64,000 nt of DNA, taken from NCBI GenBank assembly GCA_963809895.1, contig CAWELD010000003.1:1056001-1120000 (forward strand), given 5' to 3'. The notes beneath the pieces are model-generated. The model was not told the DNA's origin, ran no database searches, and saw only the letters and a program-made list of their open reading frames with translations. Position numbers and translations under genes: made by a program. The stretch's first letter is position 1. Each line of letters starts with the position of its first letter. This document shows positions 1 to 14,101 of the stretch, piece by piece. This DNA is from an uncultured Gemmatimonadales bacterium (GTDB lineage: Bacteria > Gemmatimonadota > Gemmatimonadetes > Longimicrobiales > Gaopeijiaceae).

Positions 1-2
1 GG

Positions 3-323
3 CCTCGCGGACTCCTAGAAGACCTATCCATCGATGAGCAGGGCTACCTGCGCGTAATCGTCACCGTTAGAGATGTCGATTGGCGTGATGCCGCATCGCT
101 CCGCGGCGAGGGAGCCTCTAGCGCCTATCTCCCGACTGACCTGTCCGGCTACTTCGATTCGTACGTGGACATCATCGATCCCGTTAGAGGCGTCCTTGTG
201 GCCCGGCTCTGGTCTGATGCGTACCTCACCACCTTCCTCGACCCGGAACATGCGATTGCCAACGTCGGACCGAGGGAGTCCCCGCGAACATCCATCGTCA
301 GGATTCAAGTCAAGCGACCGTGA
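3..323 (+). CDS. C-terminal part of a probable 6-bladed beta-propeller protein (5' truncated by window edge; not in ORF track)
   Basis: Frame 3 is open from base 3 to TGA 321-323: PRGLLEDLSIDEQGYLRVIVTVRDVDW...YFDSYVDIIDPVRGVLVARL. The pattern resembles the C-terminal blades of the 946-2154 protein. Confidence 0.6.
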   Translation, partial: PRGLLEDLSIDEQGYLRVIVTVRDVDWRDAASLRGEGASSAYLPTDLSGYFDSYVDIIDPVRGVLVARLWSDAYLTTFLDPEHAIANVGPRESPRTSIVRIQVKRP

Positions 324-401
324 ACTGTATCTTCCTTGGGGGAGGGGGTTCCGAACCAAATCGTTGCTTGCATCGTTCACGTATACACGTAGGAGTCTGA
401 T

Positions 402-908
402 ATGAGGAAGTTGTTTGGAGTTTCGGCCCTCTGCCTCGGCATCTTCATCGTGGCAGCCGGTTTTACGTTCCATGCTTCGCCCGCGCATGTCGCGACCGCG
501 GCAGAAGCAGAAGCGCTGTTGAGCGCCCCCATGAACTTCCGGGAGGCCCGCGTCGGTTGCGTAGCCTGCGATATCTGCGGGGATGATGGGCATCTGACAA
601 TCTCCAACCCAGAGGCCCTGAGAAGCGGACTCGTCCACAACTGCTACGACCAATACAACAACTGTGATTTCTGGCACCCCGCGGACTGCACGGTTCAGGA
701 GGACGTGCAGGAGGTCGACCTGGCCGCGCTGTGGCCAACGCTCACCGACGGGACCACCGATGAGATTCGAGGGATTCTTCAGAGGATGCCTGAACGCGTA
801 TACCTCAACGTGGACCGGAGTTCACTTCAGGTACTCGGATGCAGCGGCGCCGTCATTGCGAACCTACCGCTTGCACCCGAGAGCGTCGCGGCGTTAGCTC
901 AAGACTAG
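402..908 (+). CDS. Secreted Cys/His-rich hypothetical protein (168 aa)
   Basis: RBS AGGAG upstream; N-terminal signal peptide; central C-x2-C-x2-C-x4-H-x14-H-x-C-x6-C-x3-H-x3-C cluster. Confidence 0.8.
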   Translation: MRKLFGVSALCLGIFIVAAGFTFHASPAHVATAAEAEALLSAPMNFREARVGCVACDICGDDGHLTISNPEALRSGLVHNCYDQYNNCDFWHPADCTVQEDVQEVDLAALWPTLTDGTTDEIRGILQRMPERVYLNVDRSSLQVLGCSGAVIANLPLAPESVAALAQD

Positions 909-945
909 CCGGCGGTTTGGTTGCCCCTCCCCCAAGATTCTATCG

Positions 946-2154
946 ATGCCCACCGAGAGCTACGTCGACTTCCCCCGATCACTCAACGTGTCACGAGCGG
1001 CATCGGTTGCGGCCCTGCTTTTGCTCCTTGCGGCGTGCGGGACGGACGGCACGGTGCCGAGGATGCCCGAGTCGATGGATACGCTCCACCTCTCCAGCGA
1101 GGTCGTCATCGGACGTGAGCCAGAACAGGCCTTTGGCCACATCACCGCTATTGGCACCGCATCAGATGGGACTGCTCTGGTAGCGGACTCCTATTCTGGA
1201 CAGCTACGTGTCTTCAGCCCGGAAGGAGAAGAGCTCGCCCGCTTCGGCAGAACTGGTCAGGGCCCTGGCGAATTTGGCCTGGTCACTGCGATTTCTTCGG
1301 TGGGCGACACGCTGTGGGCGATAAGGGATGTCTCAAACGCCCGGGTCACGATTGCTTCCATGGGAGGAGAGTTTGTGACCTCTTGGTCAGCAGCCGGCGT
1401 AGAATTCTCAGGTACCAAGGGCTTGGTCACTACACCCAGCGGCAACCTGGTCCTCACCTCCTTCGAGTCAGGAGCTATTGTTGCGGAGACAAGGTCTCCT
1501 TCGGGTGCGGAAGTTGGCAAGCCCGTACGATTCCCTATGACTCACTTCGATGCCTGTCCCAAGCAACTCATCGCCGGCCCAGGTACACCGGTCATTCCCC
1601 TCTCGTCGTCTCTCCAGTGGTCCATCGCCCCTCAGGGCGGGATCTATTTCAGCTGTGGAGACGAATTTGAGGTCAGCATTGAGACATCAGCCGGGACGGA
1701 CAAGACTATCAGGAGCGTGACGCCCCCAGTGAGCGTCTCAGCTGGTGAGCGGGACTTCTACCGTGATTGGATCAATAACCGGATGCATGTCCGTAACCCT
1801 CGATGGCGATGGGACGGAAGCAACATCCCAAGCACCAAGCCACCCATCCTTGGCCTCTACGCGACCGATCGAGCTGGTTTGTGGATCGCCCTGCCGAGGC
1901 CTGGGGCTCCGGAGCCCAAACCCCCACGAGCTTCGGAGGTGGATCCCGATCCATTTTGGTTCTCTCCGAAGAGCTTCGAAGTCATCGGGCTTGATGGTCA
2001 CCCGCTCGCAATCGTTGAAGGGGATAGACACATCCAGTTGACCGTCGACCCATCTCCATGGATTGGTGGACTCTGGGCTGTGTCGACGGATCCCATTGGG
2101 ACGCCTCTTCTCGTCCACTATCGGCTTGATCAACCACTCCGGTCACTGCGATGA
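946..2154 (+). CDS. 6-bladed beta-propeller / NHL-like lipoprotein
   Basis: Lipobox LLLLLAAC; NHL-like motif VADS...LRVFSPEG...FGRTGQGPGEF. Confidence 0.8.
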   Translation: MPTESYVDFPRSLNVSRAASVAALLLLLAACGTDGTVPRMPESMDTLHLSSEVVIGREPEQAFGHITAIGTASDGTALVADSYSGQLRVFSPEGEELARFGRTGQGPGEFGLVTAISSVGDTLWAIRDVSNARVTIASMGGEFVTSWSAAGVEFSGTKGLVTTPSGNLVLTSFESGAIVAETRSPSGAEVGKPVRFPMTHFDACPKQLIAGPGTPVIPLSSSLQWSIAPQGGIYFSCGDEFEVSIETSAGTDKTIRSVTPPVSVSAGERDFYRDWINNRMHVRNPRWRWDGSNIPSTKPPILGLYATDRAGLWIALPRPGAPEPKPPRASEVDPDPFWFSPKSFEVIGLDGHPLAIVEGDRHIQLTVDPSPWIGGLWAVSTDPIGTPLLVHYRLDQPLRSLR

Positions 2155-2666
2155 GGCCTCGGCCGGCTGAATGTTGTCTAACTCGCGTCCGACGACCATC
2201 GTCGGGGAAGCAGGCTTGATCCTGGATGGATGACGCGAGAGCAGGTGCTTTCCCGACCCTTGCCGCGGCGGCCAGGACCTTCGAAGTCTGGCGATACATC
2301 TTCGGAACGGAGGACCCTGAATACCCCAACGTGCGTTTCCCGCGCGCTTTGAGCGCGGCCATCAGGACGGTGGTCGAGGAACGTCTGGAGTAAGCTCACG
2401 CGCCGAGCGCAAGGAGGCTCGCCATGCGCCGCATCGCACCACGCTGGGCCACGCCGTACCTGCTGCTGCTCATCGCTCCCCCGAGCTCGGCGGCCGCCCA
2501 GGACGCCGTCGTCTCCCGGAACGTGAACCTCCGGCATGACCCCTCAACGAACCAGCCGGCGATCCGGCTGATGCTGCCCGGCGCCGAGCTCTTCGTCCTG
2601 GACGGACAAGCCCGAACCAATGGCTACTACCACGTCCGCGCGATGGACGGGGCCGAGGGCTGGGCC

Positions 2667-4002
2667 GGGCCGGACCAGACTGGCAGATAGGTAACACTTC
2701 AGACCGACCACATGGGTAACGGCCACAGGATACTAGCGTCGCCTCCTCGTTTGTGCACCGATGCGGCGGAGACGGCCGTGCTGCTCGTCGAGAATGGCCA
2801 CGAGGCAGGGGCCGAGGTAGATATTCCAGTCTCCGCAGTCCTGGAAGTCGAGGCCCAGCGTTTCGCCGCGTAGGGTCTCGCTCACAAAGTACTCTTGGCC
2901 CCGCCATCGCATCTGCCCGTGTCGCGTGACCCGGCGGGTTTCAAATCGATCCGGATAGGAAAGCGCTTCCGGCTGTTTGGGCATCGCTGTGTTCGACGGC
3001 GTGTAAAGGCTGGCCGGTGTCTTCAGGTCGAGCGCTTCGTGCGGCCGTTCCTCATTGTAGATTCGTCGGAAGCGGTTGAACGCTCTTTGCTGGAGTTCCC
3101 GTGTCCGAGCGGGCGGCCGGGTCGCCTCAGCCTTCAGCGTCCGATGCATGCGCTCATGGGCGCCGTTGTCTTCCGGATGCCGGGGTCGGGTCCGCTCGAG
3201 CCGGATGCCCAATCGGATCCACCACACCGCGAGTTGAGACAGGCCCGCGATGGCCTGGGTGCTGAAAGGGACGCCGTTGTCCGTCCGGATGACCTCGGGA
3301 AGCCCGAAGGCACGGAAGACGCGCTCGAACCCGGCCCGAGTGCCGGCGGTCGCGGTGCTCGGCAATCCACGGCAGTCGAGCAGGAATCGACTGTGCGCAT
3401 CAACGATGGTGAGCGGGTAGCACAGACGACCGCTGCCCAATCGGAACTCACCCTTGAAGTCCGCCGTCCAGACACGGTTGGGAGCATCGGCCTCCGTCCG
3501 GGCCGGACGCCACACGCTGGGCTTCATCGTACGTCGCCTGCGCGGTTTCGTGAGGCCTTCCCGCTTGAGGATCGAGCCAATGGTGCTGCAGGCCGGCCAA
3601 CGTGCTCGAGGGCGCGCCTGCTCCAGCCATGCCTTCAGCTTTCGAGGCCCCCAGGTCGGATGCTCCTTCCGAAGCGCGACGATTTCATCAACTGTCGCCT
3701 GCGGCGTCGCTTCCCGCTGTCGGTGGGGAGCTCGCGAGCGATCCGCGAGGCCCGCCAACCCTTCCCGCCGGTACCGGTCAAGCCATTTGTACCCGACGCG
3801 TCGACTGACGCCGTACCGGGCACAGACCTCCGTCATCGAATCCCAACCCTCCAGAGCCTCCAACACGAACCGGATCCGTTCGTCCATCGGACAGGTCTCA
3901 CTCCACGGCATCGAGCACCTCGTGGCTGTAGGTGCTCTAGGTTGCGTTGAGTGTTACCTATGTGCTCGGATTATTCTGTTACCCCTGTGCCCGGTCCGTA
4001 CC
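2667..4002 (-). mobile_element. IS481-family insertion sequence (1336 bp)
   Basis: Terminal inverted repeats GGGCCGGACC (2667-2676) and GGTCCGTACC (3993-4002), 8/10 match; two internal GGTAAC-containing repeats at each end; flanking 3-bp direct repeat GCC. Confidence 0.85.
2733..3911 (-). CDS. IS481-family DDE transposase
   Basis: MPWSET...ERIRFV start with HTH; rve core with WTADFKG, IRTDNG and NGAHERMH; single ORF. Confidence 0.95.
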   Translation of the reverse strand: MPWSETCPMDERIRFVLEALEGWDSMTEVCARYGVSRRVGYKWLDRYRREGLAGLADRSRAPHRQREATPQATVDEIVALRKEHPTWGPRKLKAWLEQARPRARWPACSTIGSILKREGLTKPRRRRTMKPSVWRPARTEADAPNRVWTADFKGEFRLGSGRLCYPLTIVDAHSRFLLDCRGLPSTATAGTRAGFERVFRAFGLPEVIRTDNGVPFSTQAIAGLSQLAVWWIRLGIRLERTRPRHPEDNGAHERMHRTLKAEATRPPARTRELQQRAFNRFRRIYNEERPHEALDLKTPASLYTPSNTAMPKQPEALSYPDRFETRRVTRHGQMRWRGQEYFVSETLRGETLGLDFQDCGDWNIYLGPCLVAILDEQHGRLRRIGAQTRRRR

Positions 4003-4385
4003 GCCTACTCTCCGCGGGTCCGCATCCTCCCCCCTCCCCCACCTGGCCCCGAGGCGATCTTCAACAACTGCCCGCTCGAGGGGAACGCGGCCCGGGAGGA
4101 CACCCAGGCCCAGAACCGGCTGAAGAACCGGACGACGGCGCCCCAGGCCAGCGACATCAACCCGGCGATCACCCTCCAGGCCGGCTCCGAAGCCGGCGGC
4201 CTGGAGGTCCGCGCGCCCCTCGGTGGCTGCGCTCGTCGGGCATCTCTTCAAGGAAGGAAGGTGCAGGCGGGGCTCGCGGCGCTGGGTAGGTTACGCCGGA
4301 GCAATTACGCTGACTAGGCAACCGCCTGCGCGAAGGACGTGGGCGCTCCAAACGGCCCGGAAAACCGACGCCACACGCCCTCCGC

Positions 4386-5775
4386 TCACCATCCGTAAGG
4401 GTTCTTCGGTTTGAAGCCGAGTCTGACCCGCTCGTAGTCGGACAGGGCCCCCACGATCTCGAGGGTGACGTGGCTACCGCTCAATTCGCCGTGGTCGAGG
4501 AGAGCCTGGGCCACCGCCATTACGGCGCTCCATTCCCTGCGCAGCCACGACCGCGCCACGCGGATCGCGCCGCCTACGTCGCCGGCGCGGCCCTGCAGCG
4601 CCTGGATGCGGCGGATCGCCGCCACGGTTGAAGGCGGAGTCGAGGAGCTGGAACCCCGCCTCCAGCTCGGCCGCGATCCCCGCCGCGCATACTGTGGCGC
4701 ATGCGTCCGCCGAGGTGTCCTCTGGAGGGAGTCCCCCATGGACGCGGCCACCGTTGATGAGCAGGCGCCCGCCGTCAACGCGCCAGCGAATCTCGGCGCC
4801 GGAGAGCGTCTGGTGCAGCCGGAGCATCGCAACAGCGTGGCCTGCCTCGTGGTAGGCGACCATTCGCGCGCGCTGCCATGTCGAAGCATCGGCCAGGCGC
4901 CACGCGAGGGCCCACGGCACGCCCGCCGGCTCCTGCTCCACGACGGCGGCGATCCTCGAGGGCGCCGCGGCGGCCCGACCTGCGGGCCGAGAGCCACCGC
5001 CCTGGAGCTCCTGGAGGACGTCATCGAGGGTGGCGATGCGGTCCGCGAGCCCACGCTGGACCGCCCGGGCCGCGTCGTACGTGCGCCCACCGCCGAACTG
5101 CTGGCGAACCGTCGAGATGGACACGCCACGACCCTTGGCCACTGCCTTCTCGAACGCCCGGCCGTAGGCCTGTACGATGCTCAGGGTGTGGGCCTGGGCC
5201 TCGTCGCTCATGGGCTCGTACGGGTTGCCTTCGGCCTTCTGGTCCGGGTATCGGACGATGGTCGGCGCGATGCCGCGGCCGCCGAGGTTCTTCGACCAGT
5301 CGAAGTGCACCGTGTAGACGCCGATCGAGCCGACTTCGCCGGAGGGCGTGACCACGAGCTCCGACGCGGCGGAGGCAATCCAGTAGGCCGCGGAGGCCAT
5401 GAGGCTGTCCGCGGTGGCTACCACGCGCTTCTTCTTCGCGGCCTCGGCCACCAGAGAGGCGGCCTCCGTGACCCCGTAGACGCCGCCGCCAGGGGAATCG
5501 ACGATGAGCAGGATGCTCTCGACCGAGGGCGCGACCATCGCTGAGCGCACGGAGGCCATGAAGCTGTCGAGGCCGGTGCCGCCGAAGAAGCGGGTCATCA
5601 TCGATTCGCGGCGATCGATCAGGCCGAACAGCGGGATCACGGCTACATCACCGGCCGCGGAGATCCTCTGTCGCTGGCGGGCGGCGCGGATCGCGTGGCC
5701 CAGGCGGTCGGTGGCGAGCGCGGCGGGCTGACCCTCAAGACAGGCGAGCGCGGCGCGGAGCGAGACGTCTTCCAC
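4386..5775 (-). CDS. S49 (lambda gpC/SppA-like) head-maturation protease fused to an M41/FtsH-like HEAGH zinc-peptidase domain; frameshift near 4614
   Basis: S49 motifs DSPGG, MASAAYWIAS, GSIGV, KAEGNPYEP; then AYHEAGHAV, AGIAAE, GGD. The M41-like tail (VMAVAQALLDHGELSG) continues in another frame to stop 4386. GTG start at 5775, 2 nt after the upstream stop. Confidence 0.8.
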
Positions 5776-5777
5776 GG

Positions 5778-6476
5778 TCAGCCGCCGGTCGGGCCGTCTA
5801 GGGGCCACTTCCGCGTCTCGTCTTTGTCGTCCGAGACGGACGGCGCGACCGGCTTCGTTCCGGCCGGGATCTCGGGGTCGGCGATTGGCGGGATCGAGCC
5901 CTTGATCGCCGCCAGGCGAGCGTCGAGGTCCTTCCCGGGCTCCAGCTTCACGCGCTCGAGCTCCCGATAGGCGGCGCCGATCGCCTCGAGACGGGCGAGG
6001 ATGGAGGACCTGTTCGACACGGACCGCGCGGGCCGACCGGTGAGCCAATGCTTCGGCGCCACCTCGACCGACATGGGCTGGATCCGGCGAGTCTGCTCGT
6101 GGAGGTCCTGGAGCTCGTGCTGCAGGCGACGGATCGCGTCATCGGCCGTGCCCTTGAGTTCCTTCTCGAGCCTCGCGATACGGTGCTCGATGGAGACGCT
6201 GACGTTCCACGTCGCGCGCTCCGCGGCGGCGAGCTCATCGAGGGCGGCGCGGTGGATGCGGCCCGTCTCGGCGGCCTTCTCGCGGGCGGTGGCCTCCCGC
6301 TCTCGGAGCTTGGGAAGCTCGGCGTCTCGCTCTTTGCGCAAGGCCTCGATCTGCCTGACGAGCTGGACGCGGCGCTCCAGGCGCTGGGCCCGGGCCTGGG
6401 CCATCGCCTCCTTGTACATCGGGGTCTCGCGGAGGAAGGCCGCGACGGCGTCGGGGTGGAGTTCCGGATCCGGCAT
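5778..6476 (-). CDS. Coiled-coil hypothetical protein (232 aa)
   Basis: Long E/R/A/L-rich heptad-like helices; RBS GAGGG; co-oriented with the S49 gene. Confidence 0.75.
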   Translation of the reverse strand: MPDPELHPDAVAAFLRETPMYKEAMAQARAQRLERRVQLVRQIEALRKERDAELPKLREREATAREKAAETGRIHRAALDELAAAERATWNVSVSIEHRIARLEKELKGTADDAIRRLQHELQDLHEQTRRIQPMSVEVAPKHWLTGRPARSVSNRSSILARLEAIGAAYRELERVKLEPGKDLDARLAAIKGSIPPIADPEIPAGTKPVAPSVSDDKDETRKWPLDGPTGG

Positions 6477-6569
6477 TGTCGGGCCCTCAAGGCTGCAGGT
6501 GTTCGAGGTGGACAGTCCAACGGTAGCACCGGGTGGCCACCACGACCCCGGACAAATTCGCCGGAATTT

Positions 6570-6872
6570 TCATCGGCGTTGCCAGGCCGCTTTCCGGGCG
6601 CGGCGGAGTGCGCGGTCCAGCGTCTCTCCGTTGAGGCCAAGCCGCAGAGCCGCGGACTCCCGGATCCGCTCCGCGGTGCCTCCCTCGGTGGCCTCCAGCG
6701 CCTCGACGGCACATGCGAAGGCGAGCAGCTCGAAGAAGCCCCGCACCGCCGGTACGTGGTGCCAGCACTCCACGGGGATCCCGAGGCGACCGCAGGCGTC
6801 CACGAGCGCTACGAGGTGCTCGGGATGTAGCGCGGCCTCGATGGCCTCTCGGTCGCCAGGGTCTCGGGGCAC
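6570..6872 (-). CDS. Hypothetical protein, possible C-terminal HTH
   Basis: GTG start just after the TerS-like stop; C-terminus IRESAALRLGLNGETLDRALRRARK is HTH-like. Confidence 0.55.
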   Translation of the reverse strand: MPRDPGDREAIEAALHPEHLVALVDACGRLGIPVECWHHVPAVRGFFELLAFACAVEALEATEGGTAERIRESAALRLGLNGETLDRALRRARKAAWQRR

Positions 6873-6882
6873 GGGAAAGCGT

Positions 6883-7338
6883 CTACCGCTCGCCCAGGGC
6901 GCGGAGCTCGGCGCGGGCGGCTTCCACGACATCGCGGATCAACTCCCGGGCCCGCGACTGCGGGATGTCCAGCTCCTCGGCCACGGACGGGGCCAGCCGG
7001 CGCGGCGCATCCTTGAGGACCTGGTTCACGCGCTCCAGCGGCTCGCGGACGAGTCGCTCCATGTCGTCGAGGGCGACGAGTTGGCCCTGCTCGCGGGCCA
7101 CCTCGAGCTCACGTTTCGCGGCCCTGGCTTCGACCTCACGAACTCGAGCCCGCTGGAGGGCCGACGTGTCGTTGCCGTGCTCCAATAGGAAGCGGAGGAG
7201 CGGCTGGACCCGGTACGTCGGGCTGCGATCGTCGGTGCGAGCCTCCTGGAGGCCCTGCGACTCCCAGTTGCGCAGCGTCCGCTCGGTCATGTCGAGCGCA
7301 ATTGCCACTTCGGCACGGGTGATGGTCAGTGCGGCCAT
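6883..7338 (-). CDS. Nu1-like terminase small subunit (possible packaging redirector)
   Basis: N-terminal winged-HTH (TRAEVAIALDMTERTLRNWESQG), then coiled coil ARVREVEARAAKRELEVAREQGQLV, as in lambda gpNu1-type proteins; RBS GAGGG. Confidence 0.75.
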   Translation of the reverse strand: MAALTITRAEVAIALDMTERTLRNWESQGLQEARTDDRSPTYRVQPLLRFLLEHGNDTSALQRARVREVEARAAKRELEVAREQGQLVALDDMERLVREPLERVNQVLKDAPRRLAPSVAEELDIPQSRARELIRDVVEAARAELRALGER

Positions 7339-7384
7339 CTGGCCCTCACGGAAGAAAGGAAGGAGGTATTTTCGTGCTCTCTTT

Positions 7385-7440
7385 GGCGCGAAAAGTCGCT
7401 CGCGCGGCACCCATCCAACTCAGGTCGGGGGACGGACCCG
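7385..7440 (-). promoter_or_regulatory. Putative cos-like packaging site (cosQ/cosN-like)
   Basis: Minus strand reads GGGTCCG-N20-GGGTGCCGCGCG-AGCGACTTTTCGC directly upstream of the Nu1-like gene; layout resembles lambda cosQ-cosN. Confidence 0.45.
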
Positions 7441-7492
7441 CGCTCACTCACCGGTCCTCCTCGAGGAGCTGGTCCGGCGCGCCTGGTCATCG

Positions 7493-7855
7493 TCACTTGA
7501 GCTCTCTCCGCCAGGAGCCCAGGTCCACCTCACCGCGTCGGCGGCGCGTGGTGACGGGCTTCACCTCGCCTGCCTCGGAGCGCTGGAAGGCCCGGATGGC
7601 GGCGCGCGGGATCTTCCACTCCCTGCCCTGCTGTCGGTAGGCGCCCGGGAGCAGGTCGCGGCGGCAGTAGTCCCTCACCGTCGAGGGTGAACGCCCGAGG
7701 ACGTCGCCCGCCTCTTCGACGGTCAGGTCGGCCAGCGAGTCGCCCGTGGGGGTCGGTGTGCTGTCGGGGAGGCGCTCGAGGATGACCCGAGCCGGGACGG
7801 AGGCCTCCACCTCGGCCAGCTGCTCGAGCCAACGTCGGAAGTCGGAGTAGGTCAT
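7493..7855 (-). CDS. Excisionase-like (MerR/HTH_17-type) DNA-binding protein
   Basis: LTVEEAGDVLGRSPSTVRDYCRR...GAYR...REWKIP; RBS GGAGG before ATG 7855. Confidence 0.85.
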   Translation of the reverse strand: MTYSDFRRWLEQLAEVEASVPARVILERLPDSTPTPTGDSLADLTVEEAGDVLGRSPSTVRDYCRRDLLPGAYRQQGREWKIPRAAIRAFQRSEAGEVKPVTTRRRRGEVDLGSWRRELK

Positions 7856-7872
7856 GGCCACCTCCGCCCACC

Positions 7873-8038
7873 GTGCCCAAGCCCGGCACGTCGGATGGAG
7901 CGTCGAGTGGACCTCGGGAGTGTGCCCAATGCCCCACCCCCCTTCAGGGGGTGTGTTGGGGCACGGTGGGCACACCCCCTCTCCCGGTGTGCCCTGGGCA
8001 CGGTTTGGGCACGGTTGGGCACGGTCCTCATCGGGCAC
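7873..8038. repeat. Iteron cluster, putative replication origin
   Basis: Nine GGGCAC/GTGCCC hexamers in both orientations, three tandem TGGGCACGGT, and a central CCCCCTTCAGGGGG palindrome, at the 3' end of the helicase gene. Confidence 0.7.
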
Positions 8039-9344
8039 CTCCGGCGAGGCTGATCCGAGAGGCCTGCCCTCGCTTCTCGGGGGTCTGGATGACCACCTCT
8101 CCCCGACTGTGCAGGAGCTCGAGGGCGGCCACGATGTCGGGGTTGTGACCCTTGATTCCGTCCCGGAGCGATCGCTTCGACGAGCCCGGATGCAGGGCCA
8201 AGTACTCCAGGACGGCGGGCGCCATCTTCTCGGCGCCGGCCATGCGTTCCACGAGCTCGGGCCGGTGGTCGCTCACCCGCAACCTGAGCCACCCACCAGA
8301 GCGGAAGCTGTTGTGCGGTCCGGCTGGATCCTCGTCCTCGACTGTGAAGGCGAACGGATCCGGGGATACCTCGTCCCGGAGTTCCACCCTCACCGTGACG
8401 GGGGACGTCTCGTCCTTCCGACCGAGCACCGCCCCCATGTCATACCAGGCGCCGAACGCGGAGGAGTTGCGGATCAGGTCGGTGAGCCGCTGGCCTCCTC
8501 CTTGGCCCGGGTCCTTCCGGGCGTGGTGCGTGAGCTGGAGCGCGATGCCCTTCGCCTTGGCGCGGATCCCCGAGAACGCGTTGAGCTGGGGGGTCACCAC
8601 GTCGGAGTCGTCGCTGTCGCCGGTGGCCACGTACGACCAGTTGTCGACCGCCAGGAAGTCGAGCTCCAACTCGGCAGCGTAGTCTCCGAGCTCGTCCACC
8701 GTGCGGTCGCTGAAGCGGAGCGGGGGCCGGAACCAGAGGTGAAGCCATCCGTCGAGCTCCTGGGGGTCTATCCCCCTGCCCCGGCAGATGCGCTCGTAAC
8801 GGCGGCGGACCCGGTGGTCCCGATCCTCCATCAGGACCGCCCCGACGCGGCGGCGCTCGGGCACCTCGAACCGGCCCAGGAAGCGGGTGCCCGACGCGAG
8901 TGCCACCAGCTTCTCCAGGAGAAGGAGGGTCTTGTACGTCTTCGGGTAGCCTGCCTGCAGGATGTTGGCGTCCACGGGGTCCGGGCTCTCGATCAGGAAG
9001 GCCTCTTCGGGCTCCTCCACCGCCAGGAGCTCGGCCACGCCGATGGGGGGCGGGAGCGTTCGTGGTTCGGGCTCCTCACTCAGGCCCTCGAGCGCCCAGG
9101 ACACCGCGGACGACGCCGCACCGTCCGAGAGCCGCTGCAGCAGGAGCTCCTCCGCCGCCGCGCGAAGTGACATCCATCCGCGTGGCGAGGCCGGCCGGAA
9201 CCGCTCGGCGATCTGCCGGACGGCCTGGTAGGCGGAGATCTGACTGTCGACCCCGGGCAGGAACTCCTCGAGGGCAGCCCGGGCCTCTTCGGGCGTCGTG
9301 AGGGTGCCATTGCGCTCGAACTCTCGAGCCGACGCCGACGTCAT
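8028..9344 (-). CDS. AAA_25 / RepA-like replicative helicase
   Basis: Walker A-like AGYPKTYKT, MED, Walker B FLAVD, THHARK, RNSSAF; C-terminal winged-helix-like tail. Confidence 0.85.
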   Translation of the reverse strand: MTSASAREFERNGTLTTPEEARAALEEFLPGVDSQISAYQAVRQIAERFRPASPRGWMSLRAAAEELLLQRLSDGAASSAVSWALEGLSEEPEPRTLPPPIGVAELLAVEEPEEAFLIESPDPVDANILQAGYPKTYKTLLLLEKLVALASGTRFLGRFEVPERRRVGAVLMEDRDHRVRRRYERICRGRGIDPQELDGWLHLWFRPPLRFSDRTVDELGDYAAELELDFLAVDNWSYVATGDSDDSDVVTPQLNAFSGIRAKAKGIALQLTHHARKDPGQGGGQRLTDLIRNSSAFGAWYDMGAVLGRKDETSPVTVRVELRDEVSPDPFAFTVEDEDPAGPHNSFRSGGWLRLRVSDHRPELVERMAGAEKMAPAVLEYLALHPGSSKRSLRDGIKGHNPDIVAALELLHSRGEVVIQTPEKRGQASRISLAGGAR

Positions 9345-9494
9345 GCCCACGCCCCCATACTGTTTCCTCCACCAGGAATCACAACGCCTGGGAGGCTTCT
9401 TTCTATCTCACTGGCGGACAGCGGCTTGAGGGAGCTCGCGAATAGCGCCCGCCTGGCCACTGTAGACAGGAATGTGGACACGGCCCGGATTCCC

Positions 9495-9728
9495 TTATCC
9501 GGCGCGATCATCCGGGCCTTTCCCCATCGCGCCGAGGACCTTGGCCAGGTTGGACACGCGGCGGCGGACCACGCGCGCCTCGGCGGCTGCGAAGCGCCCA
9601 GCCTCGACGGCATAAGGCTCAAGGCCAGCGGTCACGGCCGCGTCCAACTGGTCGACGAGCGCGTCTGCCAGCTTCACGGCCTGGCGAAGATGATCCCGGG
9701 CGGCGGCCGTCATCTCATCCCTGGCCAT
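9495..9728 (-). CDS. Small helical hypothetical protein (77 aa)
   Basis: MARDEMTAAARDHLRQ...; start overlaps the end of the AlpA gene. Confidence 0.6.
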   Translation of the reverse strand: MARDEMTAAARDHLRQAVKLADALVDQLDAAVTAGLEPYAVEAGRFAAAEARVVRRRVSNLAKVLGAMGKGPDDRAG

Positions 9729-9921
9729 CGGTCTCACCCGCGACAGGCCTGGAGGTGATCCAATCCTGGATCTCGCTGGAGAGCCAACCCACGACCCCAC
9801 CGCCGAGGTCGCGGCGCCTGGGAAAGCGCCCTTCCCGCTCGCGGCCGTAGATGGTGTTTCTGCCGAGGCCGGTGACCTCGGAGACTTCGTTGATCCGGAG
9901 GATTCGGTCCTGGTCCGCCAT
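9715..9921 (-). CDS. AlpA-family phage regulator / excisionase
   Basis: RILRINEVSEVTGLGRNTIY...GRFPRRRDLGGGVVGWLSSEIQDWI; RBS AAAGGAGG. Confidence 0.92.
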   Translation of the reverse strand: MADQDRILRINEVSEVTGLGRNTIYGREREGRFPRRRDLGGGVVGWLSSEIQDWITSRPVAGETDGQG

Positions 9922-10188
9922 CGCTCGCTGCCTCCTTTCGGGAGTCGCGGATGGCGGCACCTGGACAGGAAACCAAGACAGTCCAAGGACCGCCACCCGT
10001 GCTTCTGGGTGGTTCAGTCGCCTTGGGGCTGTCTCGGTGTGAGGTTGGCCGCAAGTCCAGCTATGTAAGGGGCCGACCAACAGTGGGCCGGGCACCGTGA
10101 TCATACTGCATGTAGGGGGGTTGTCCCGTCAAGTCCCGTAGATCACGGAGGCGTACGGCGGAGTCCGACGCGACCACGTTCTTTGTGC

Positions 10189-10768
10189 TCAGAACTGGTC
10201 CGATATGAATCCAATCTTGGCGCTCCCACCCCCCAGCGCACCTTCGAGAGTTGGACGCCCAACCCAATACCGTTCGATGCTCGACACCCGTCGGATGAGC
10301 AGGTCAGCGGCGCGATGAGCTGCATCGCCGTCTACCGTGCCCTGGTCGACCAATGCCCGATCCCCATCGTCCTTCAGCCAAGAGAAGCTCCACCGTTCGG
10401 GGTCCCCCTCGGATACCTCGACCACGAACAGCGCGGGAGCTTGATCGCCGGCAGGAAAGATGAGGATCCGGGCTCGTAGGGTGGGGCCGGCATCCTTAAG
10501 CGGGAGACACGTCTTCCGTGCCACGATGGCCCATCGCTTCCCCCTGATCTCGAAATGCAGAGCCCTGTACTCTGGACTCTGCTCCTCCTTCGGCTGCGAC
10601 ACTCCGTCCATTTGCATCCGCAGCGCATCCTGCATGGAACTGCCACACATAGCCGATGAAGGCATCGGCGAAGCGTTCGAAGACGGGGAGGAGCCGTGCT
10701 TGGCGCTCTCGGAGGGGTCGGATGCGGTCGGCGAGATCCTGCACCGTCATGGGCACGAAGCTGGCCAT
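10189..10768 (-). CDS. Hypothetical protein, probably one gene with a frameshift near 10645
   Basis: RBS AGGAG plus ATG 10768. The N-part (MASFVPMT...FIGYV) and the protein-like C-part (SSMQDALR...AKIGFISDQF) are in different frames and meet at a TG repeat. Confidence 0.5.
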
Positions 10769-10790
10769 CGGTGGTCTCCTTGCTCCTGGG

Positions 10791-11166
10791 GGTGGCCCTG
10801 GGGGAGCCGGTCGCAAGATACCACGGAGACGCGGCGAGCAGCTACCTGCTACACGCCTGTCAGGCGATTGGGGACCTCGCCGAGTCGATCCCGGGGGCGC
10901 TCAGGGGGTGAGGGGCCCGAACCTGAAGCAGAGGCCCGCCTCCGTTTCCGTGATCCCACCGATCTGCGCAATGACGTGTTCGGGCAGACGTGCGGGATCG
11001 AGGATCCGGTACCAAGCGCCCTCGCGCTGCAACACGCCGTCGCTGATCAGACGTTCGAAGTCGATCGGCGTACGAAGGAGCTTGATCCGCTCTTCGACCT
11101 CTTCCTTGGTGAGGCGTGCCATCGATCCCTCCGTGCTCAGGTGGCCCTGGGGGAGCCGGTCGCAAG
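10791..11166. repeat. 27-bp exact direct repeat (10791-10817 and 11140-11166)
   Basis: GGTGGCCCTGGGGGAGCCGGTCGCAAG occurs twice, each copy just upstream of a minus-strand ORF. Confidence 0.95.
10901..11122 (-). CDS. Small hypothetical protein (73 aa)
   Basis: MARLTKEEVEERIKLLRTPIDFERLISDGVL...; RBS GGAGGG. Confidence 0.7.
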   Translation of the reverse strand: MARLTKEEVEERIKLLRTPIDFERLISDGVLQREGAWYRILDPARLPEHVIAQIGGITETEAGLCFRFGPLTP

Positions 11167-11189
11167 GTAGGAACAGCAGATGATAGACG

Positions 11190-11765
11190 CTATTGGCCCA
11201 AGTACTTCGACGGCGGGGTGCGTTCGCCCGCGATACGCGCCATTGCCTCCAACGCCTCCGCGATCCGATGTGATGGAGGGCGCGGCTGCCTGGTGTGCTC
11301 CCACGACTCCCACTCAAGAGTCGATACAGTGAAGTGGCTGGCCGGATGGAAGGCCGCAAACGGGGACCGCGCTCTACTCTCGTACTCGACACTGACCCTC
11401 ACAGGTCGGTCTTTCAGCAGTTTCGCCACCGCGTCAACCCATCCCCAGCGGACGGCCCGTTCCTCTCCCGGCGCCAGCATCGGAACCCCCGTAATCAGGG
11501 GTCCACTCTTCATGGGCCCGTCCTGCTCCCTGCCGACACGCTGTGGAAGCTCTCGGTCCAGGTGAAAGCGAACACCATAGGCTGGCCCGAGTCCCACGTT
11601 CCTGATGACGATGAGGAAGTCATCCAGCGAGTCCGGATCCAAGCGGAGGAATACGAGCACAAGCGGGTCGGTTTGTGCGCGCATCGTGAAGTAGCTTGCG
11701 AGGGCCGCAAACAGGCCAACCGCAACAAGCGCCGCCGTTGCGATCAGCATCCCGACCTCCGTCAC
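11190..11765 (-). CDS. Membrane-anchored hypothetical protein
   Basis: N-terminal TM helix followed by IRNVGLGPA beta-sandwich-like segment; GTGA overlap with the upstream gene. Confidence 0.75.
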   Translation of the reverse strand: MTEVGMLIATAALVAVGLFAALASYFTMRAQTDPLVLVFLRLDPDSLDDFLIVIRNVGLGPAYGVRFHLDRELPQRVGREQDGPMKSGPLITGVPMLAPGEERAVRWGWVDAVAKLLKDRPVRVSVEYESRARSPFAAFHPASHFTVSTLEWESWEHTRQPRPPSHRIAEALEAMARIAGERTPPSKYLGQ

Positions 11766-11986
11766 CCCTCCAACTCCTCCGCCAGCTCGACGAGCTCCGC
11801 GGCCCGGGCCCGGGCGAGCTTCGCGATGGCCGCCTCCCAGCCCGGGGGTGGAGATCGGTACCCGGTGCTGTCAGGGTCGAGACGAGCCTTGGCGATGGAG
11901 GACGACTCTCGAGCCATGCTCGACGCCACGTCGTCCAGAGTCACCCGGAGGCCGGTGATCCGGTCCGTCGCTTCCTTGAAGTCCAT
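11762..11986 (-). CDS. Small probable DNA-binding regulator (74 aa)
   Basis: MDFKEATDRI...TLDDVASSMARESSSIAKARL is HTH-like; divergent from radC across two operators. Confidence 0.65.
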   Translation of the reverse strand: MDFKEATDRITGLRVTLDDVASSMARESSSIAKARLDPDSTGYRSPPPGWEAAIAKLARARAAELVELAEELEG

Positions 11987-11989
11987 GGC

Positions 11990-12040
11990 TGTCCATCCTT
12001 TTATTGACACGGACGGGGAGTGTCCATATCATATTGGACA
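11990..12040 (+). promoter_or_regulatory. Sigma70-type promoter overlapped by two palindromic operators
   Basis: TTGACA 12004-12009, 17-nt spacer, TATCAT 12027-12032; operators TGTCCA-N8-TTGACA (11990-12009) and TGTCCA-N8-TGGACA (12021-12040). Confidence 0.8.
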
Positions 12041-12170
12041 GCGGGGCATAAAAGCAAGGCGCCAGGGCCACCCGGAAAGTGAACACCTGACGCCTCACAA
12101 ACACGGCTCTCGCCGCCCCTTACGATCGCCCTGCGAGGGGGGTGAGGGCAAGGATCAGGAGATCGGATCC

Positions 12171-12629
12171 ATGCAGAAGGCACTCGAGTTGTGGAGGACG
12201 TCGCTCATCCGCGAGCCAGGGCCCACCGTCCCGATCACGGGATCCGTCACCGGCCCGGCCCACGTGGGGCTGCTCATGGCGCACCTCTACGGCGACGCCG
12301 CCCAGGAGCACCTGGTGGTCTTCGCGCTGAACGCTCGCCATCATGTCGTGGGGATCCACCCGGTCACGACGGGGATCGCCGATGCCTCCCTGGCCCACGC
12401 CCGTGAGGTGTTCCGACCGGCGATCCTCGCCAATGCGACGGCCATCATCGTCGCCCATAACCACCCGACCGGCGATCTCACGCTGAGCCTGGAGGACAAG
12501 CAACTCGCCGCGCGCCTCGAGGTGGCGGGCCGACACCTGGGGATCAACGTCCTGGACTTCATCGTCACCGACCACCGCGGCCGCTGGCACTCGATTCACG
12601 GGAAGCACGCGAAGGGGGAGGTAGCCTGA
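12171..12629 (+). CDS. RadC-like JAB domain protein
   Basis: QEHLVVFALNARH, REVFRPAI, HNHPTGD..LS.ED (JAB motif); RBS AGGAG. Confidence 0.92.
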   Translation: MQKALELWRTSLIREPGPTVPITGSVTGPAHVGLLMAHLYGDAAQEHLVVFALNARHHVVGIHPVTTGIADASLAHAREVFRPAILANATAIIVAHNHPTGDLTLSLEDKQLAARLEVAGRHLGINVLDFIVTDHRGRWHSIHGKHAKGEVA

Positions 12630-12630
12630 C

Positions 12631-13908
12631 ATGCCCAAGCGCACCACCACGCGCCTCTACACGCGCCAGCAGGGCGGCGAGAATCGCTTCTACGGCGATT
12701 TCCGGGCCTACGCCGACGTAGGGGGCGGCCGGGAGGCTCTGATCCCGGAGGGGCAGCGCCAGGCGACCACGGATCCGGATATCGCGGCCAAGCTCTACGC
12801 CGATCGGCTGAAGGAGCTGGACGCCAAGCGCCGGAACCGTCACCTCCACGGGGTCCTGAAGGAGACCGACCTCGGACCCTACGCCGAGTATCACCTGCAG
12901 CAGAAGGCCCGGGACCGGGACGCCACGGAGCGGTGGCTCAAGATGGAGGAGCGCCACCTGCGGGACGCCGTCGCCTTCTTCGGGACCAGCACCGGACTCG
13001 CAGCGATCAGCCCGGAGGAGTGCACCCGGTGGGTCGAGGAGCTCCGCCACCAGGACAACGGCCGCGGGGGGACCCTGTCGGAGACGAGCATCCGGAAGCG
13101 GCTCAACACCCTCTCGAACCTCTTCCGCCGCGCGGTGAGCGAAGGGTACGTCCACCGGAACCCCGTGGCGGACATGTACTCGAAGCCCACGGAGGAGCGC
13201 CGGGAGGCGGACTACCTCGAGCCGGAGGAGGCCGCGCTGCTCCTCGAGTCGGCGCGGACGTACCGGGCGCCCGTGGACGATGGCGCGTTCCCGTACATGT
13301 ATCCGCTGCTGGCCACCTTCCTCCTCACCGGCGGCCGGAAGTCGGAGGTCCTGGGCCTCGAGGTGGACGACGTGAGCCTCCGCCTGGGCAAGGTCTACAT
13401 CCGGCCGAACGACTGGCGCCGGCTCAAGACGCGGGGCAGCAAGCGGACCGTCCCACTCTGGCCGCAGCTCGAGGAGATCCTCCGGGCCTACCTGGTGGAG
13501 CGGGAACGCTCGGGCGGGCTCGGCCGGCTCCTCTTCCCTTCGGCCCGGGGTGAGGGCGAGAGCCTCATCCGGGACGTGCGGAAGGCCCTGGACCACATTG
13601 CGGTCCGCGCGGGCTTCCAGAAGGGCGCCGTCCGCCTCCACCAGCTCCGGCACACGTACACGGCGGCCCGGCTCCAGACGTGCGACCGGGGTCGGCCCGT
13701 GGCCCTTTACACGGTCGCCCGCGAGCTCGGGCACTCCGGCACCGCCATGATCGAGGACCGCTACGGCCACCTCCACGACCGCGTGGAAGCCGGCGGCACG
13801 GAGGTAGTGGAGTTCCGGGTGGAGGCCTGGAGGGAGCGTCTCGGCGAGCGACTCACCGCCCTCGAGCAGCGAGCCAACGCCGGCGACGTCACCGACGCGG
13901 AGGGCTGA
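12631..13908 (+). CDS. Tyrosine recombinase / integrase
   Basis: TGGRKSE, LKT, HQLRHT, LGH, RYGH catalytic motifs; ends about 120 bp from the tRNA-Gly 3' end. Confidence 0.95.
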   Translation: MPKRTTTRLYTRQQGGENRFYGDFRAYADVGGGREALIPEGQRQATTDPDIAAKLYADRLKELDAKRRNRHLHGVLKETDLGPYAEYHLQQKARDRDATERWLKMEERHLRDAVAFFGTSTGLAAISPEECTRWVEELRHQDNGRGGTLSETSIRKRLNTLSNLFRRAVSEGYVHRNPVADMYSKPTEERREADYLEPEEAALLLESARTYRAPVDDGAFPYMYPLLATFLLTGGRKSEVLGLEVDDVSLRLGKVYIRPNDWRRLKTRGSKRTVPLWPQLEEILRAYLVERERSGGLGRLLFPSARGEGESLIRDVRKALDHIAVRAGFQKGAVRLHQLRHTYTAARLQTCDRGRPVALYTVARELGHSGTAMIEDRYGHLHDRVEAGGTEVVEFRVEAWRERLGERLTALEQRANAGDVTDAEG

Positions 13909-14028
13909 GAAGCCCCCCTTTTTTTCGCCGTTCGTGGGCACTGATTCTGACACTGCCGCCCACCGTACCCTCGAACTGAACGAGCCCGGCAAGGCCGCAA
14001 AGCCTTACCGGGTCTCGTTTTACTCCAG

Positions 14029-14101
14029 AGCGGGCGACCGGGCTCGAACCGGCGACCCTCAGCTTGGGAAGCTGATGCTCTACCAACTGAGCTACGCCCG
14101 C
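14029..14101 (-). tRNA. tRNA-Gly (CCC)
   Basis: GCGGGCGTAGCTCAGTTGGTAGAGC...TTCCCAA...GGTTCGAGCC; CCA not encoded. Confidence 0.97.

What the first reader, a model, noticed from the sequence alone, without database searches (positions are those of the whole stretch)
4386..14028. Candidate new phage-satellite type: cos-like site, Nu1-like TerS, coiled-coil protein and dual protease, with no capsid gene
Seen: tRNA-Gly, then integrase, radC, switch, variable ORFs, alpA, AAA_25 helicase, iterons, xis-like HTH, cos-like site, Nu1-like gene, HTH-like gene, coiled-coil gene and S49/M41 protease, in about 9.6 kb. No capsid, portal, TerL, tail or lysis genes. Established: Gram-negative PICIs have an int-alpA-pri/rep layout, and E. 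coli PICIs use a Nu1-related Rpp plus their own cos to hijack lambdoid terminases; cf-PICIs carry full HK97-type head modules. Inference: this element fits neither. It keeps only the lambda-type packaging-specificity factor and a head protease, suggesting it redirects packaging and interferes with or remodels helper prohead maturation, in a phylum where I know of no described satellites.
Basis: partly seen in the sequence, partly recalled or inferred. Interest (0 to 1): 0.85.

Follow-up and report, generated by a model that had tools for sequence, protein, structure and literature searches.

The report
Capsid-less phage satellite with fused proteases
A 16-kb mobile element in a tRNA gene of a Gemmatimonadota bacterium carries its own DNA-packaging tag and a two-part protease gene (broken in this copy, intact in relatives) but no virus shell genes, so it is likely a parasite of lambda-like phages that would use their packaging motor and possibly act on their capsid assembly.

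Summary
No capsid, portal, TerL or tail gene was found in it, and no lambda-type helper in the genome. It meets up to four of five SatelliteFinder PICI core components, so 'fits neither' is too strong; E. coli PICIs with a gpC-like protease are already published. What is new: it belongs to an unannotated satellite family of Longimicrobiales (about 100-aa marker, 16 of 401 genomes; 529 protein clusters) whose late module swaps TerS, capsid, prohead proteases and tape measure. The S49 + FtsH-fold (M41-like) zinc-protease fusion is intact, with catalytic motifs, in five other sequences, and a same-genus element has a triple S49-S78-M41 fusion. The S49 is closest to the S49-capsid polyproteins of lambda-type phages of the same order, which share the cos-like motif. 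The coiled-coil + S49 cassette without capsid recurs in Caballeronia and Chloroflexota elements. Packaging hijack is well supported by inference; action on helper proheads is untested. Verdict: new variant of PICI.

The parts
14024..14101 (-). tRNA-Gly(CCC) at attL; 49-bp att core 14024-14072, repeated exactly at G000:C3:1053708-1053756 (attR, 2.3 kb left of the window)
12631..13908 (+). Tyrosine integrase, 425 aa, pointing outward toward attL
   Evidence: PF00589 3e-13, phrog_1 1e-43
12171..12629 (+). RadC-like JAB domain protein, 152 aa
   Evidence: PF04002 9e-29
12004..12032 (+). Near-consensus sigma70 promoter (11 of 12) facing radC-int, divergent from the leftward genes
   Evidence: 2 sites found, 0.3 expected; consensus match only
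11762..11986 (-). 74-aa putative regulator; 47% identical to the gene at the same place in L037, but widespread outside satellites, so not a family marker
   Evidence: (70 of 301 genomes)
10189..11765 (-). Variable zone: 191-aa, 73-aa and uncertain ORFs; no Pfam, PHROG or PADLOC match
9715..9921 (-). AlpA regulator/excisionase, 68 aa
   Evidence: PF05930 2e-17
9495..9713 (-). 72-aa conserved protein (homologs in L037, L205, L320)
8028..9350 (-). AAA_25 (RepA-type) helicase, 440 aa; no primase domain detected
   Evidence: PF13481 3e-18
7851..8040 (-). Iteron cluster, likely replication origin
   Evidence: 9 hexamers against 0.24 expected
7493..7855 (-). HTH_17 Xis-like protein, 120 aa
   Evidence: PF12728 3e-12
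7409..7439 (-). cos-like motif (GGGTCC core with a downstream GGGT), 101 nt upstream of TerS; shared with lambda-type prophages of the phylum
6883..7338 (-). Full-length Nu1-type terminase small subunit, 151 aa
   Evidence: phrog_57 1.2e-12 over profile 7-174 of 199; aligns through the C-terminal helices of prophage TerS
6570..6878 (-). About 100-aa helical protein with a weak C-terminal HTH signal; family marker
5778..6476 (-). 232-aa coiled-coil (helical hairpin) protein; homologs next to capsid or S49 genes in other satellites
4386..5775 (-). S49 prohead protease (Ser128, Lys about 52 residues later) fused to an M41-like HExxH zinc-protease domain (HEAGH at 309); frameshift near 4615
1..4385 (.). 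Cargo inside the element: beta-propeller and secreted proteins, SH3 fragment, IS481 transposase (2733-3911); continues 2.3 kb left of the window
   Evidence: GC 0.627 against 0.685 in the core

Best explanation
This is a 16.3-kb element integrated at tRNA-Gly that likely behaves as a PICI-type satellite: it would excise and replicate from its own helicase and iterons, and its full-length Nu1-type TerS and cos-like site would recruit the large terminase of a lambda-type helper phage to pack its DNA into helper heads. Shown: boundaries, gene set, absence of detectable capsid, portal and TerL genes, conservation in relatives. Inferred: the S49 domain was captured from the S49-capsid polyprotein of such a helper and became fused to the M41-like zinc-protease gene that follows the capsid gene in capsid-bearing members of the family; the fusion is kept by selection and probably acts, with the coiled-coil protein, on helper prohead assembly (size change or sabotage). 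This copy is frameshifted, so it would make an active S49 with a truncated second domain. Odds: satellite 0.85; packaging by a lambda-type TerL 0.75; protease acting on helper proheads about 0.4.
For: 49-bp att repeat, 16,316 bp; relatives with mapped att repeats are 7-17 kb (8 of 13 loci tested). Same order in L205 and, with TerS moved, L037. Marker in 16 of 401 genomes of the order and 529 clusters. Lambda-type prophages (Nu1 TerS, gpA TerL, gpB portal, S49 or S49-capsid) occur in the phylum. GGGTCC core upstream of 8 of 8 Nu1-type satellite genes and 9 of 11 prophage-type loci; strict pattern in 4 of 8 and 6 of 11. Intact S49-M41 fusions P0002, P0003, P0004, P0279 and the N-truncated P0006, 41-47% identical to the window protein where aligned, keep Ser, Lys and HExxH. 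Model of the intact fusion: residues 301-441 match FtsH-family protease domains, Z 14.5, rmsd 2.7, 139 aligned. S49-M41 rows form a clade (FastTree 0.96; SH-aLRT 90.9) next to S49 proteins of lambda-type phages (0.92). Capsid followed by a stand-alone M41-like gene in L320, L324, L325. A soil contig about 96% identical has 11 more bases at 4615, so the break is local.
Against: No helper found in this genome (phrog_57 only once). No excision, circle or virion evidence (one search shows none). The protease gene is broken here, an IS481 sits in the cargo, and a decayed S49-M41 copy exists in L235. No primase domain. int points outward, unlike the unidirectional Gram-negative PICIs (PMC10111431). 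The coiled-coil protein has no specific fold match, so the scaffold role rests on position alone. One origin for all five satellite S49s tested, L037 included, was not rejected (AU p 0.053, 5000 replicates). The cos pattern was chosen after seeing the data, and 2 of 4 P27-type loci also have a GGGTCCC core.
Confidence: 0.7

Rival explanations
1. An ordinary PICI on its way down: it captured a helper S49-capsid gene, lost the capsid part by deletion, and the S49-M41 fusion is a passenger with no role in capsid assembly; only TerS and cos matter.
For: PICI late zones capture helper genes and then lose many (PMC10111431); capsid and head-decoration genes of EcCICFT073 were not needed for interference (PMC6092414). 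Frameshift here, decayed copy in L235, capsid-M41 order in three relatives makes the fusion a one-step deletion.
Against: Five other fusions at about 44-54% mutual identity keep both catalytic sets and an open frame; a related triple fusion exists in L037; capsid-less elements with a prohead protease recur in L335 and five loci outside the order.
Confidence: 0.18
2. The S49-M41 protein is a defence effector: S49 senses or co-oligomerises with an incoming phage's head protease and the zinc protease destroys phage or host proteins, protecting the cell rather than helping satellite packaging.
For: No capsid to process in the element; satellites often carry anti-phage genes (search listings); position at the end of the late operon next to cargo.
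Against: It sits in the slot where relatives have capsid, prohead protease or tape measure, co-oriented and translationally coupled to the coiled-coil gene. No defence-library comparison of the fusion itself was run.
Confidence: 0.09
3. Remnant of a decayed lambda-like prophage.
For: TerS, cos-like site and S49 are all of lambda type; int points outward as in prophages.
Against: Intact att pair 16 kb apart; no TerL or portal remnant between TerS and S49, where prophages have them; marker and coiled-coil genes were not found in the prophage loci held; the layout is conserved in other genomes.
Confidence: 0.03

Closest known systems
PICI, SatelliteFinder Type B lacking the capsid component (PMC10085698)
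   Same: tRNA-integrated, satellite-sized; integrase, AlpA, replication module, TerS; no tail or holin.
   Different: No primase domain detected; int divergent and outward; S49-M41 fusion, coiled-coil and marker genes are not part of the model; host phylum Gemmatimonadota.
E. coli cos-type PICIs with Rpp (EcCICFT073; PMC9026076, PMC6092414)
   Same: cos-like site directly upstream of a Nu1-related gene; lambda-type helper inferred.
   Different: The window gene aligns through the C-terminal helices of prophage TerS, so it could recruit TerL itself; Rpp lacks that part. Four relatives (L205, L322, L326, L329) have a truncated, DNA-binding-domain-only form that is Rpp-like in that respect. EcCICFT073 encodes capsid and decoration proteins; this element does not.
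E. coli tRNA-Ile2 PICIs bearing a CLP_protease (lambda gpC-like) gene (PMC10111431)
   Same: PICI with a captured gpC-type head protease in the late zone.
   Different: Those lack alpA; no M41-like fusion is mentioned in the passages and section read; the protease's role was not tested there.
cf-PICI (PMC10085698)
   Same: Early module; some relatives carry capsid, HNH, prohead protease or TerL.
   Different: No capsid, portal, TerL or head-tail genes in the window element.
Lambda gpC / S49 head-maturation proteases (phrog_53) and FtsH M41 protease domain
   Same: Ser-Lys dyad motifs; HExxH and FtsH-type fold.
   Different: Fused to each other, with no capsid domain and no AAA+ motor or membrane anchor.
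TMP-carrying satellites (EPIPs, PMC12822802; PLE11 as cited there)
   Same: Relatives L205 and L326, and L083, L215, L225, L233, carry tape-measure genes without tails.
   Different: The window element has no tape measure.

Membership tests
PICI (SatelliteFinder) | Integrase at a chromosomal att site | tested here: met
PICI (SatelliteFinder) | alpA, merR or stl regulator | tested here: met
   PF05930 2e-17
PICI (SatelliteFinder) | Primase-replicase module | tested here: inconclusive
   AAA_25 helicase and iterons present; only a weak phrog_2597 match, no primase domain; SatelliteFinder's own profiles not available
PICI (SatelliteFinder) | Capsid morphogenesis gene (may be absent in Type B) | tested here: not met
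   No capsid match by Pfam, PHROG, tblastn or own HMM (the own HMM missed one known partial capsid, L333)
PICI (SatelliteFinder) | Terminase small subunit | tested here: met
   phrog_57 1.2e-12
PICI (SatelliteFinder) | No tail, holin or cf-PICI genes | tested here: met
PICI | Helper-induced excision, replication and packaging | not testable with these tools
   No junction seen in two contig sets at low depth
Gram-negative PICI | Unidirectional genes with int aiming inward | tested here: not met
   int and radC are on +, all other core genes on -; criterion from PMC10111431
E. coli Rpp-type PICI | Rpp lacking the C-terminal TerL-binding region | tested here: not met
   Window protein aligns to the C-terminal helices of prophage TerS; no Rpp sequence was compared directly
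E. coli Rpp-type PICI | cos site upstream of the TerS-like gene | tested here: met
   Motif shared with lambda-type prophages; cleavage untested
cf-PICI | Capsid, portal, TerL, head-tail adaptor and connector | tested here: not met
P4-like | Psu/Sid coiled-coil capsid-size proteins | tested here: inconclusive
   Coiled-coil model matched only generic helical hairpins; Psu and Sid were not among the listed rows
Peptidase S49 | Ser-Lys dyad on a ClpP/crotonase fold | tested here: met
   PF01343 above cut-off; motifs kept; SppA best fold match Z 19.8
Peptidase M41 | HExxH and FtsH protease fold | tested here: met
   Intact relative: Z 14.5 to FtsH-family domains; Pfam score below cut-off; hhalign 87% on the C-terminal helices only; truncated in this copy

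The most novel reading that the evidence does not exclude
A cross-phylum class of capsid-less satellites uses a coiled-coil + captured prohead-protease cassette to take over helper head assembly, and the Longimicrobiales branch has armed it: the helper-derived S49 domain serves as an address label that carries an FtsH-type zinc protease into the helper prohead to recut or destroy its capsid polyprotein, with TerS, cos and protease type swapped as a set to match lambda-type or HK97-type helpers.
Probability: 0.25. Interest if true: 0.85.

Novelty: new variant of a known kind. Interest (0 to 1): 0.6.

Why it matters
Known satellites change helper capsids with scaffolds or their own capsid protein (recalled: Sid, CpmAB, TcaP; Ccm). 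A satellite that works through proteolysis of the prohead would be a new interference route, and the intact fusions in relatives make it testable. Even without that, the roughly 100-aa marker, which has no PHROG match in 96 members scanned, opens a large unannotated satellite family in Gemmatimonadota, an abundant soil phylum, with natural variants (capsid or none, full or truncated TerS, one to three proteases, tape measure) that show how PICI late modules are assembled.

Tried and rejected
The 74-aa 'switch' protein as a marker: found in 70 of 301 genomes, and none of 40 loci fetched showed the late module by the reference search. Single-sequence searches with the coiled-coil protein found only itself. 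Viral-contig searches with the 74-aa and marker alignments found nothing. DNA patterns for the HFDWS stretch returned 5 viral and 7 metagenome loci, the readable ones all ordinary phage head modules. Fold searches of the coiled-coil model gave generic hairpins only. No PADLOC match for 19 cargo and variable proteins. A stand-alone M41-like protein had no match among 50,697 phage records. A second degenerate tRNA-Gly copy at C3:1032081 is not the boundary, since host genes (engA, gpsA, surE by my reading of the translations) lie between. L037's coiled-coil protein could not be linked to the window's by sequence (94 of 300 shuffles reached its score), nor those of L225 and L233; they are placed by position only. 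L336 was a false marker hit (transposase-like), and 6 of 17 loci had the marker at a contig end or no readable element. The 35-row IQ-TREE run timed out without supports. A coiled-coil/capsid complex prediction was not obtained. Sequence and place look-ups of earlier findings returned nothing.
Full report
Boundaries. The tRNA-Gly(CCC) gene lies at 14028-14101 on the minus strand. Its 3' half is repeated exactly over 49 bp at G000:C3:1053708, 2.3 kb left of the window, which gives an element of 16,316 bp. The remaining 6.7 kb is lower-GC cargo (0.627 against 0.685): beta-propeller and secreted proteins, a 274-314-aa phrog_5990 protein, an SH3 fragment and an IS481 transposase. No capsid, portal, TerL or tail gene lies there, and tblastn with head genes from related prophages found none elsewhere in the 95%-complete genome. 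Record titles of the nearest loci name Longimicrobiales, phylum Gemmatimonadota.

Core genes. Integrase and radC point toward the tRNA; a near-consensus promoter at 12004 faces them. All else runs the other way: a 74-aa putative regulator, variable ORFs, AlpA, a 72-aa protein, an AAA_25 helicase without a detected primase domain, an iteron cluster (9 hexamers against 0.24 expected), an HTH_17 protein, the cos-like site, TerS, a protein of about 100 aa, a 232-aa coiled-coil protein and the protease gene.

Packaging module. The 151-aa TerS matches phrog_57 over nearly the whole profile and aligns through the C-terminal helices of prophage TerS proteins. Rpp proteins are described as lacking the last 30-40 residues that bind TerL (PMC9026076, passages), so this gene reads as a true TerS; I did not compare an Rpp sequence directly. 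Lambda-type prophages with Nu1 TerS, gpA TerL, gpB portal and S49 or S49-capsid genes are present in genomes of the phylum. A GGGTCC core lies upstream of TerS in 9 of 11 such loci and of 8 of 8 Nu1-type satellite genes. A stricter pattern matched 6 of 11 and 4 of 8, occurs 13 times in the genome and once in the window, at 7439. The pattern was set after inspection, and 2 of 4 P27-type loci also carry a similar core, so it is supportive, not decisive.

Protease gene. The S49 domain keeps the Ser and Lys motifs, and HEAGH follows at residue 309. Near 4615 the frame shifts: the helices that end the domain in relatives continue in another frame to 4386, with coding-like GC3. A 992-bp soil contig about 96% identical to this stretch has 11 more bases at that point (one contig, depth 5); other short contigs of that run cover the coiled-coil gene, TerS and the integrase end. 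The break is therefore local, either a real deletion or an assembly collapse. Intact fusions exist: P0002, P0003, P0004, P0279 and the N-truncated P0006. A model of P0003 (mean pLDDT 65; mostly 70-93 in the second domain) matches SppA in the first domain (Z 19.8) and FtsH-family protease domains in the second (Z 14.5, rmsd 2.7, 139 residues). In a 171-row tree the four full fusions included form a clade (0.96) beside S49 proteins of lambda-type phages, among them the S49-capsid polyprotein of the G224 prophage (0.92); a 22-row IQ-TREE gave SH-aLRT 90.9 for the clade and 96.2 for its grouping with those phage proteins.

The family. L205 (15.9 kb between repeats) has integrase, repressor, primase-helicase, cos-like site, a truncated Nu1-like gene, the 100-aa protein, coiled coil, intact S49-M41 and a tape-measure-like gene. 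L037, same genus, 13.5 kb at tRNA-Val, has a P27-type TerS, a coiled-coil gene, an S49-S78-M41 triple fusion and a 131-aa phrog_5707 protein (decoration-like by my recall), and no capsid. Its S49 groups with HK97-type phages, but one origin for all five satellite S49s was not rejected (AU p 0.053). A profile of the 100-aa protein hit 16 of 401 genomes of the order, 6 of 401 of the phylum at a stricter cut-off, one of them false, and 529 clusters among 1.84 billion proteins; 0 of 96 members match PHROG and Pfam gives only weak HTH hits. Of 21 further loci fetched, 14 showed an element; with the window, L205 and L037 that makes 17. Seven have a capsid gene (L317, L320, L324, L325, L329, L330, partial L333) and ten have none detected, two of these on short contigs. 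Twelve have a coiled-coil gene in the late module. A stand-alone M41-like gene follows the capsid gene in L320, L324 and L325. L317 has a gpA TerL, L326 a clear tape measure, L335 an HK97-type protease without capsid, and L334 probably the same by motif only.

Beyond the phylum. Among S49 loci with no phage head gene nearby (17 of 163), I examined six: one (L106) was an ordinary phage, and five were capsid-less elements: L083 (viral contig), L215 (Chloroflexota), L225 (Planctomycetia), L231 (Caballeronia) and L233 (Rhizobium), four of them with a tape measure. A profile of the window and L205 coiled-coil proteins, searched over 14,723 ORFs of 339 loci, ranked as its top four outside hits genes adjoining S49 in L236, L101, L215 and L231; for L215 and L231 none of 300 local shuffles reached the observed score. 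These loci were all selected for S49, so adjacency is the signal, not presence. The coiled-coil model is a long helical hairpin with no specific structural match.

Comparison with the literature. SatelliteFinder defines PICI by integrase, alpA/merR/stl, primase-replicase, capsid and TerS, and counts elements with four as Type B (PMC10085698, passages). PICI late zones capture helper late genes, and one E. coli genotype carries a gpC-like CLP_protease gene (PMC10111431, passages and section 20). EcCICFT073 has cos sites, capsid and decoration genes (PMC6092414, passages). Marine VEIMEs lack capsid genes and some carry TerS or serine proteases (PMC9618062, passages). EPIPs carry a tape measure (PMC12822802, passages). 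Six searches listed no paper on an S49-M41 fusion or on Gemmatimonadota satellites; only 20 of 401 papers were listed, the library is open-access only, and supplements were not read, so SatelliteFinder's tables may hold members of this phylum.

Mechanism and verdict. Shown: a bounded, satellite-sized element with a lambda-type TerS and cos-like site, no virion shell genes, and a conserved family. Inferred: helper-dependent packaging by a gpA-type TerL; origin of the fusion by capture of a helper S49-capsid gene and loss of the capsid part; selection for both protease activities; action on helper proheads together with the coiled-coil protein. The last step is untested and competes with passive decay and with defence. 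The finding is a new variant of PICI, not a new category, but the protease fusions, the unannotated marker family and the cross-phylum coiled-coil + S49 cassette make it worth follow-up. Interest 0.6.

Noticed in passing
L037:7513-11052 (G390, same genus): 13.5-kb tRNA-Val element with P27-type TerS, a triple S49 + S78 + M41-like protease and a phrog_5707 protein, but no capsid, portal or TerL detected.
   Followed up: yes
L205:8265-8735, L322:10303-10779, L326:5128-5538, L329:10202-10723: Nu1-like DNA-binding domain with a conserved N-terminal extension and no C-terminal oligomerisation region, behind a cos-like site: a possible independent Rpp analogue.
   Followed up: partly
window 11762-11986: 74-aa protein family found in 70 of 301 Longimicrobiales genomes, up to 15 copies each, mostly outside satellites; no Pfam, PHROG or NCBIfam match.
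   Followed up: partly
L317:4168-6503: Satellite-like element with Nu1 TerS, gpA TerL, marker, coiled coil and capsid but no portal seen.
   Followed up: partly
L328:10341-11359: Two tandem full-length Nu1-type TerS genes in one capsid-less element.
   Followed up: no
L083, L215, L225, L233: Capsid-less elements in several phyla with S49 (plus a second protease-like region in L083 and L225) and a tape-measure gene.
   Followed up: partly
L101:4385-11100: A marker-like gene, coiled coil and S49 with HNH and small regulators appear inserted right after a shortened portal gene of a prophage: possible helper-embedded satellite.
   Followed up: no
G000:C3:1032081-1032173: A second, degenerate copy of the tRNA-Gly 3' end and adjoining sequence 21.6 kb beyond attR, next to a small cluster of beta-propeller cargo; possibly the scar of an older insertion.
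   Followed up: partly
window 13930-13955 and L001:3850-3872: A near-identical 24-bp sequence lies just inside both ends of the element in the same orientation; possible integrase arm site.
   Followed up: no
L001:4256-5200: Cargo gene for a 274-314-aa protein (phrog_5990) that looks like an Ntn-hydrolase/proteasome-subunit relative by my reading; no Pfam, NCBIfam or PADLOC match.
   Followed up: partly
G000:C3:1555306-1556956 and 2232855-2233784 (L337, L338): Two further tRNA-linked integrase elements in this genome, without packaging genes in the calls made.
   Followed up: partly
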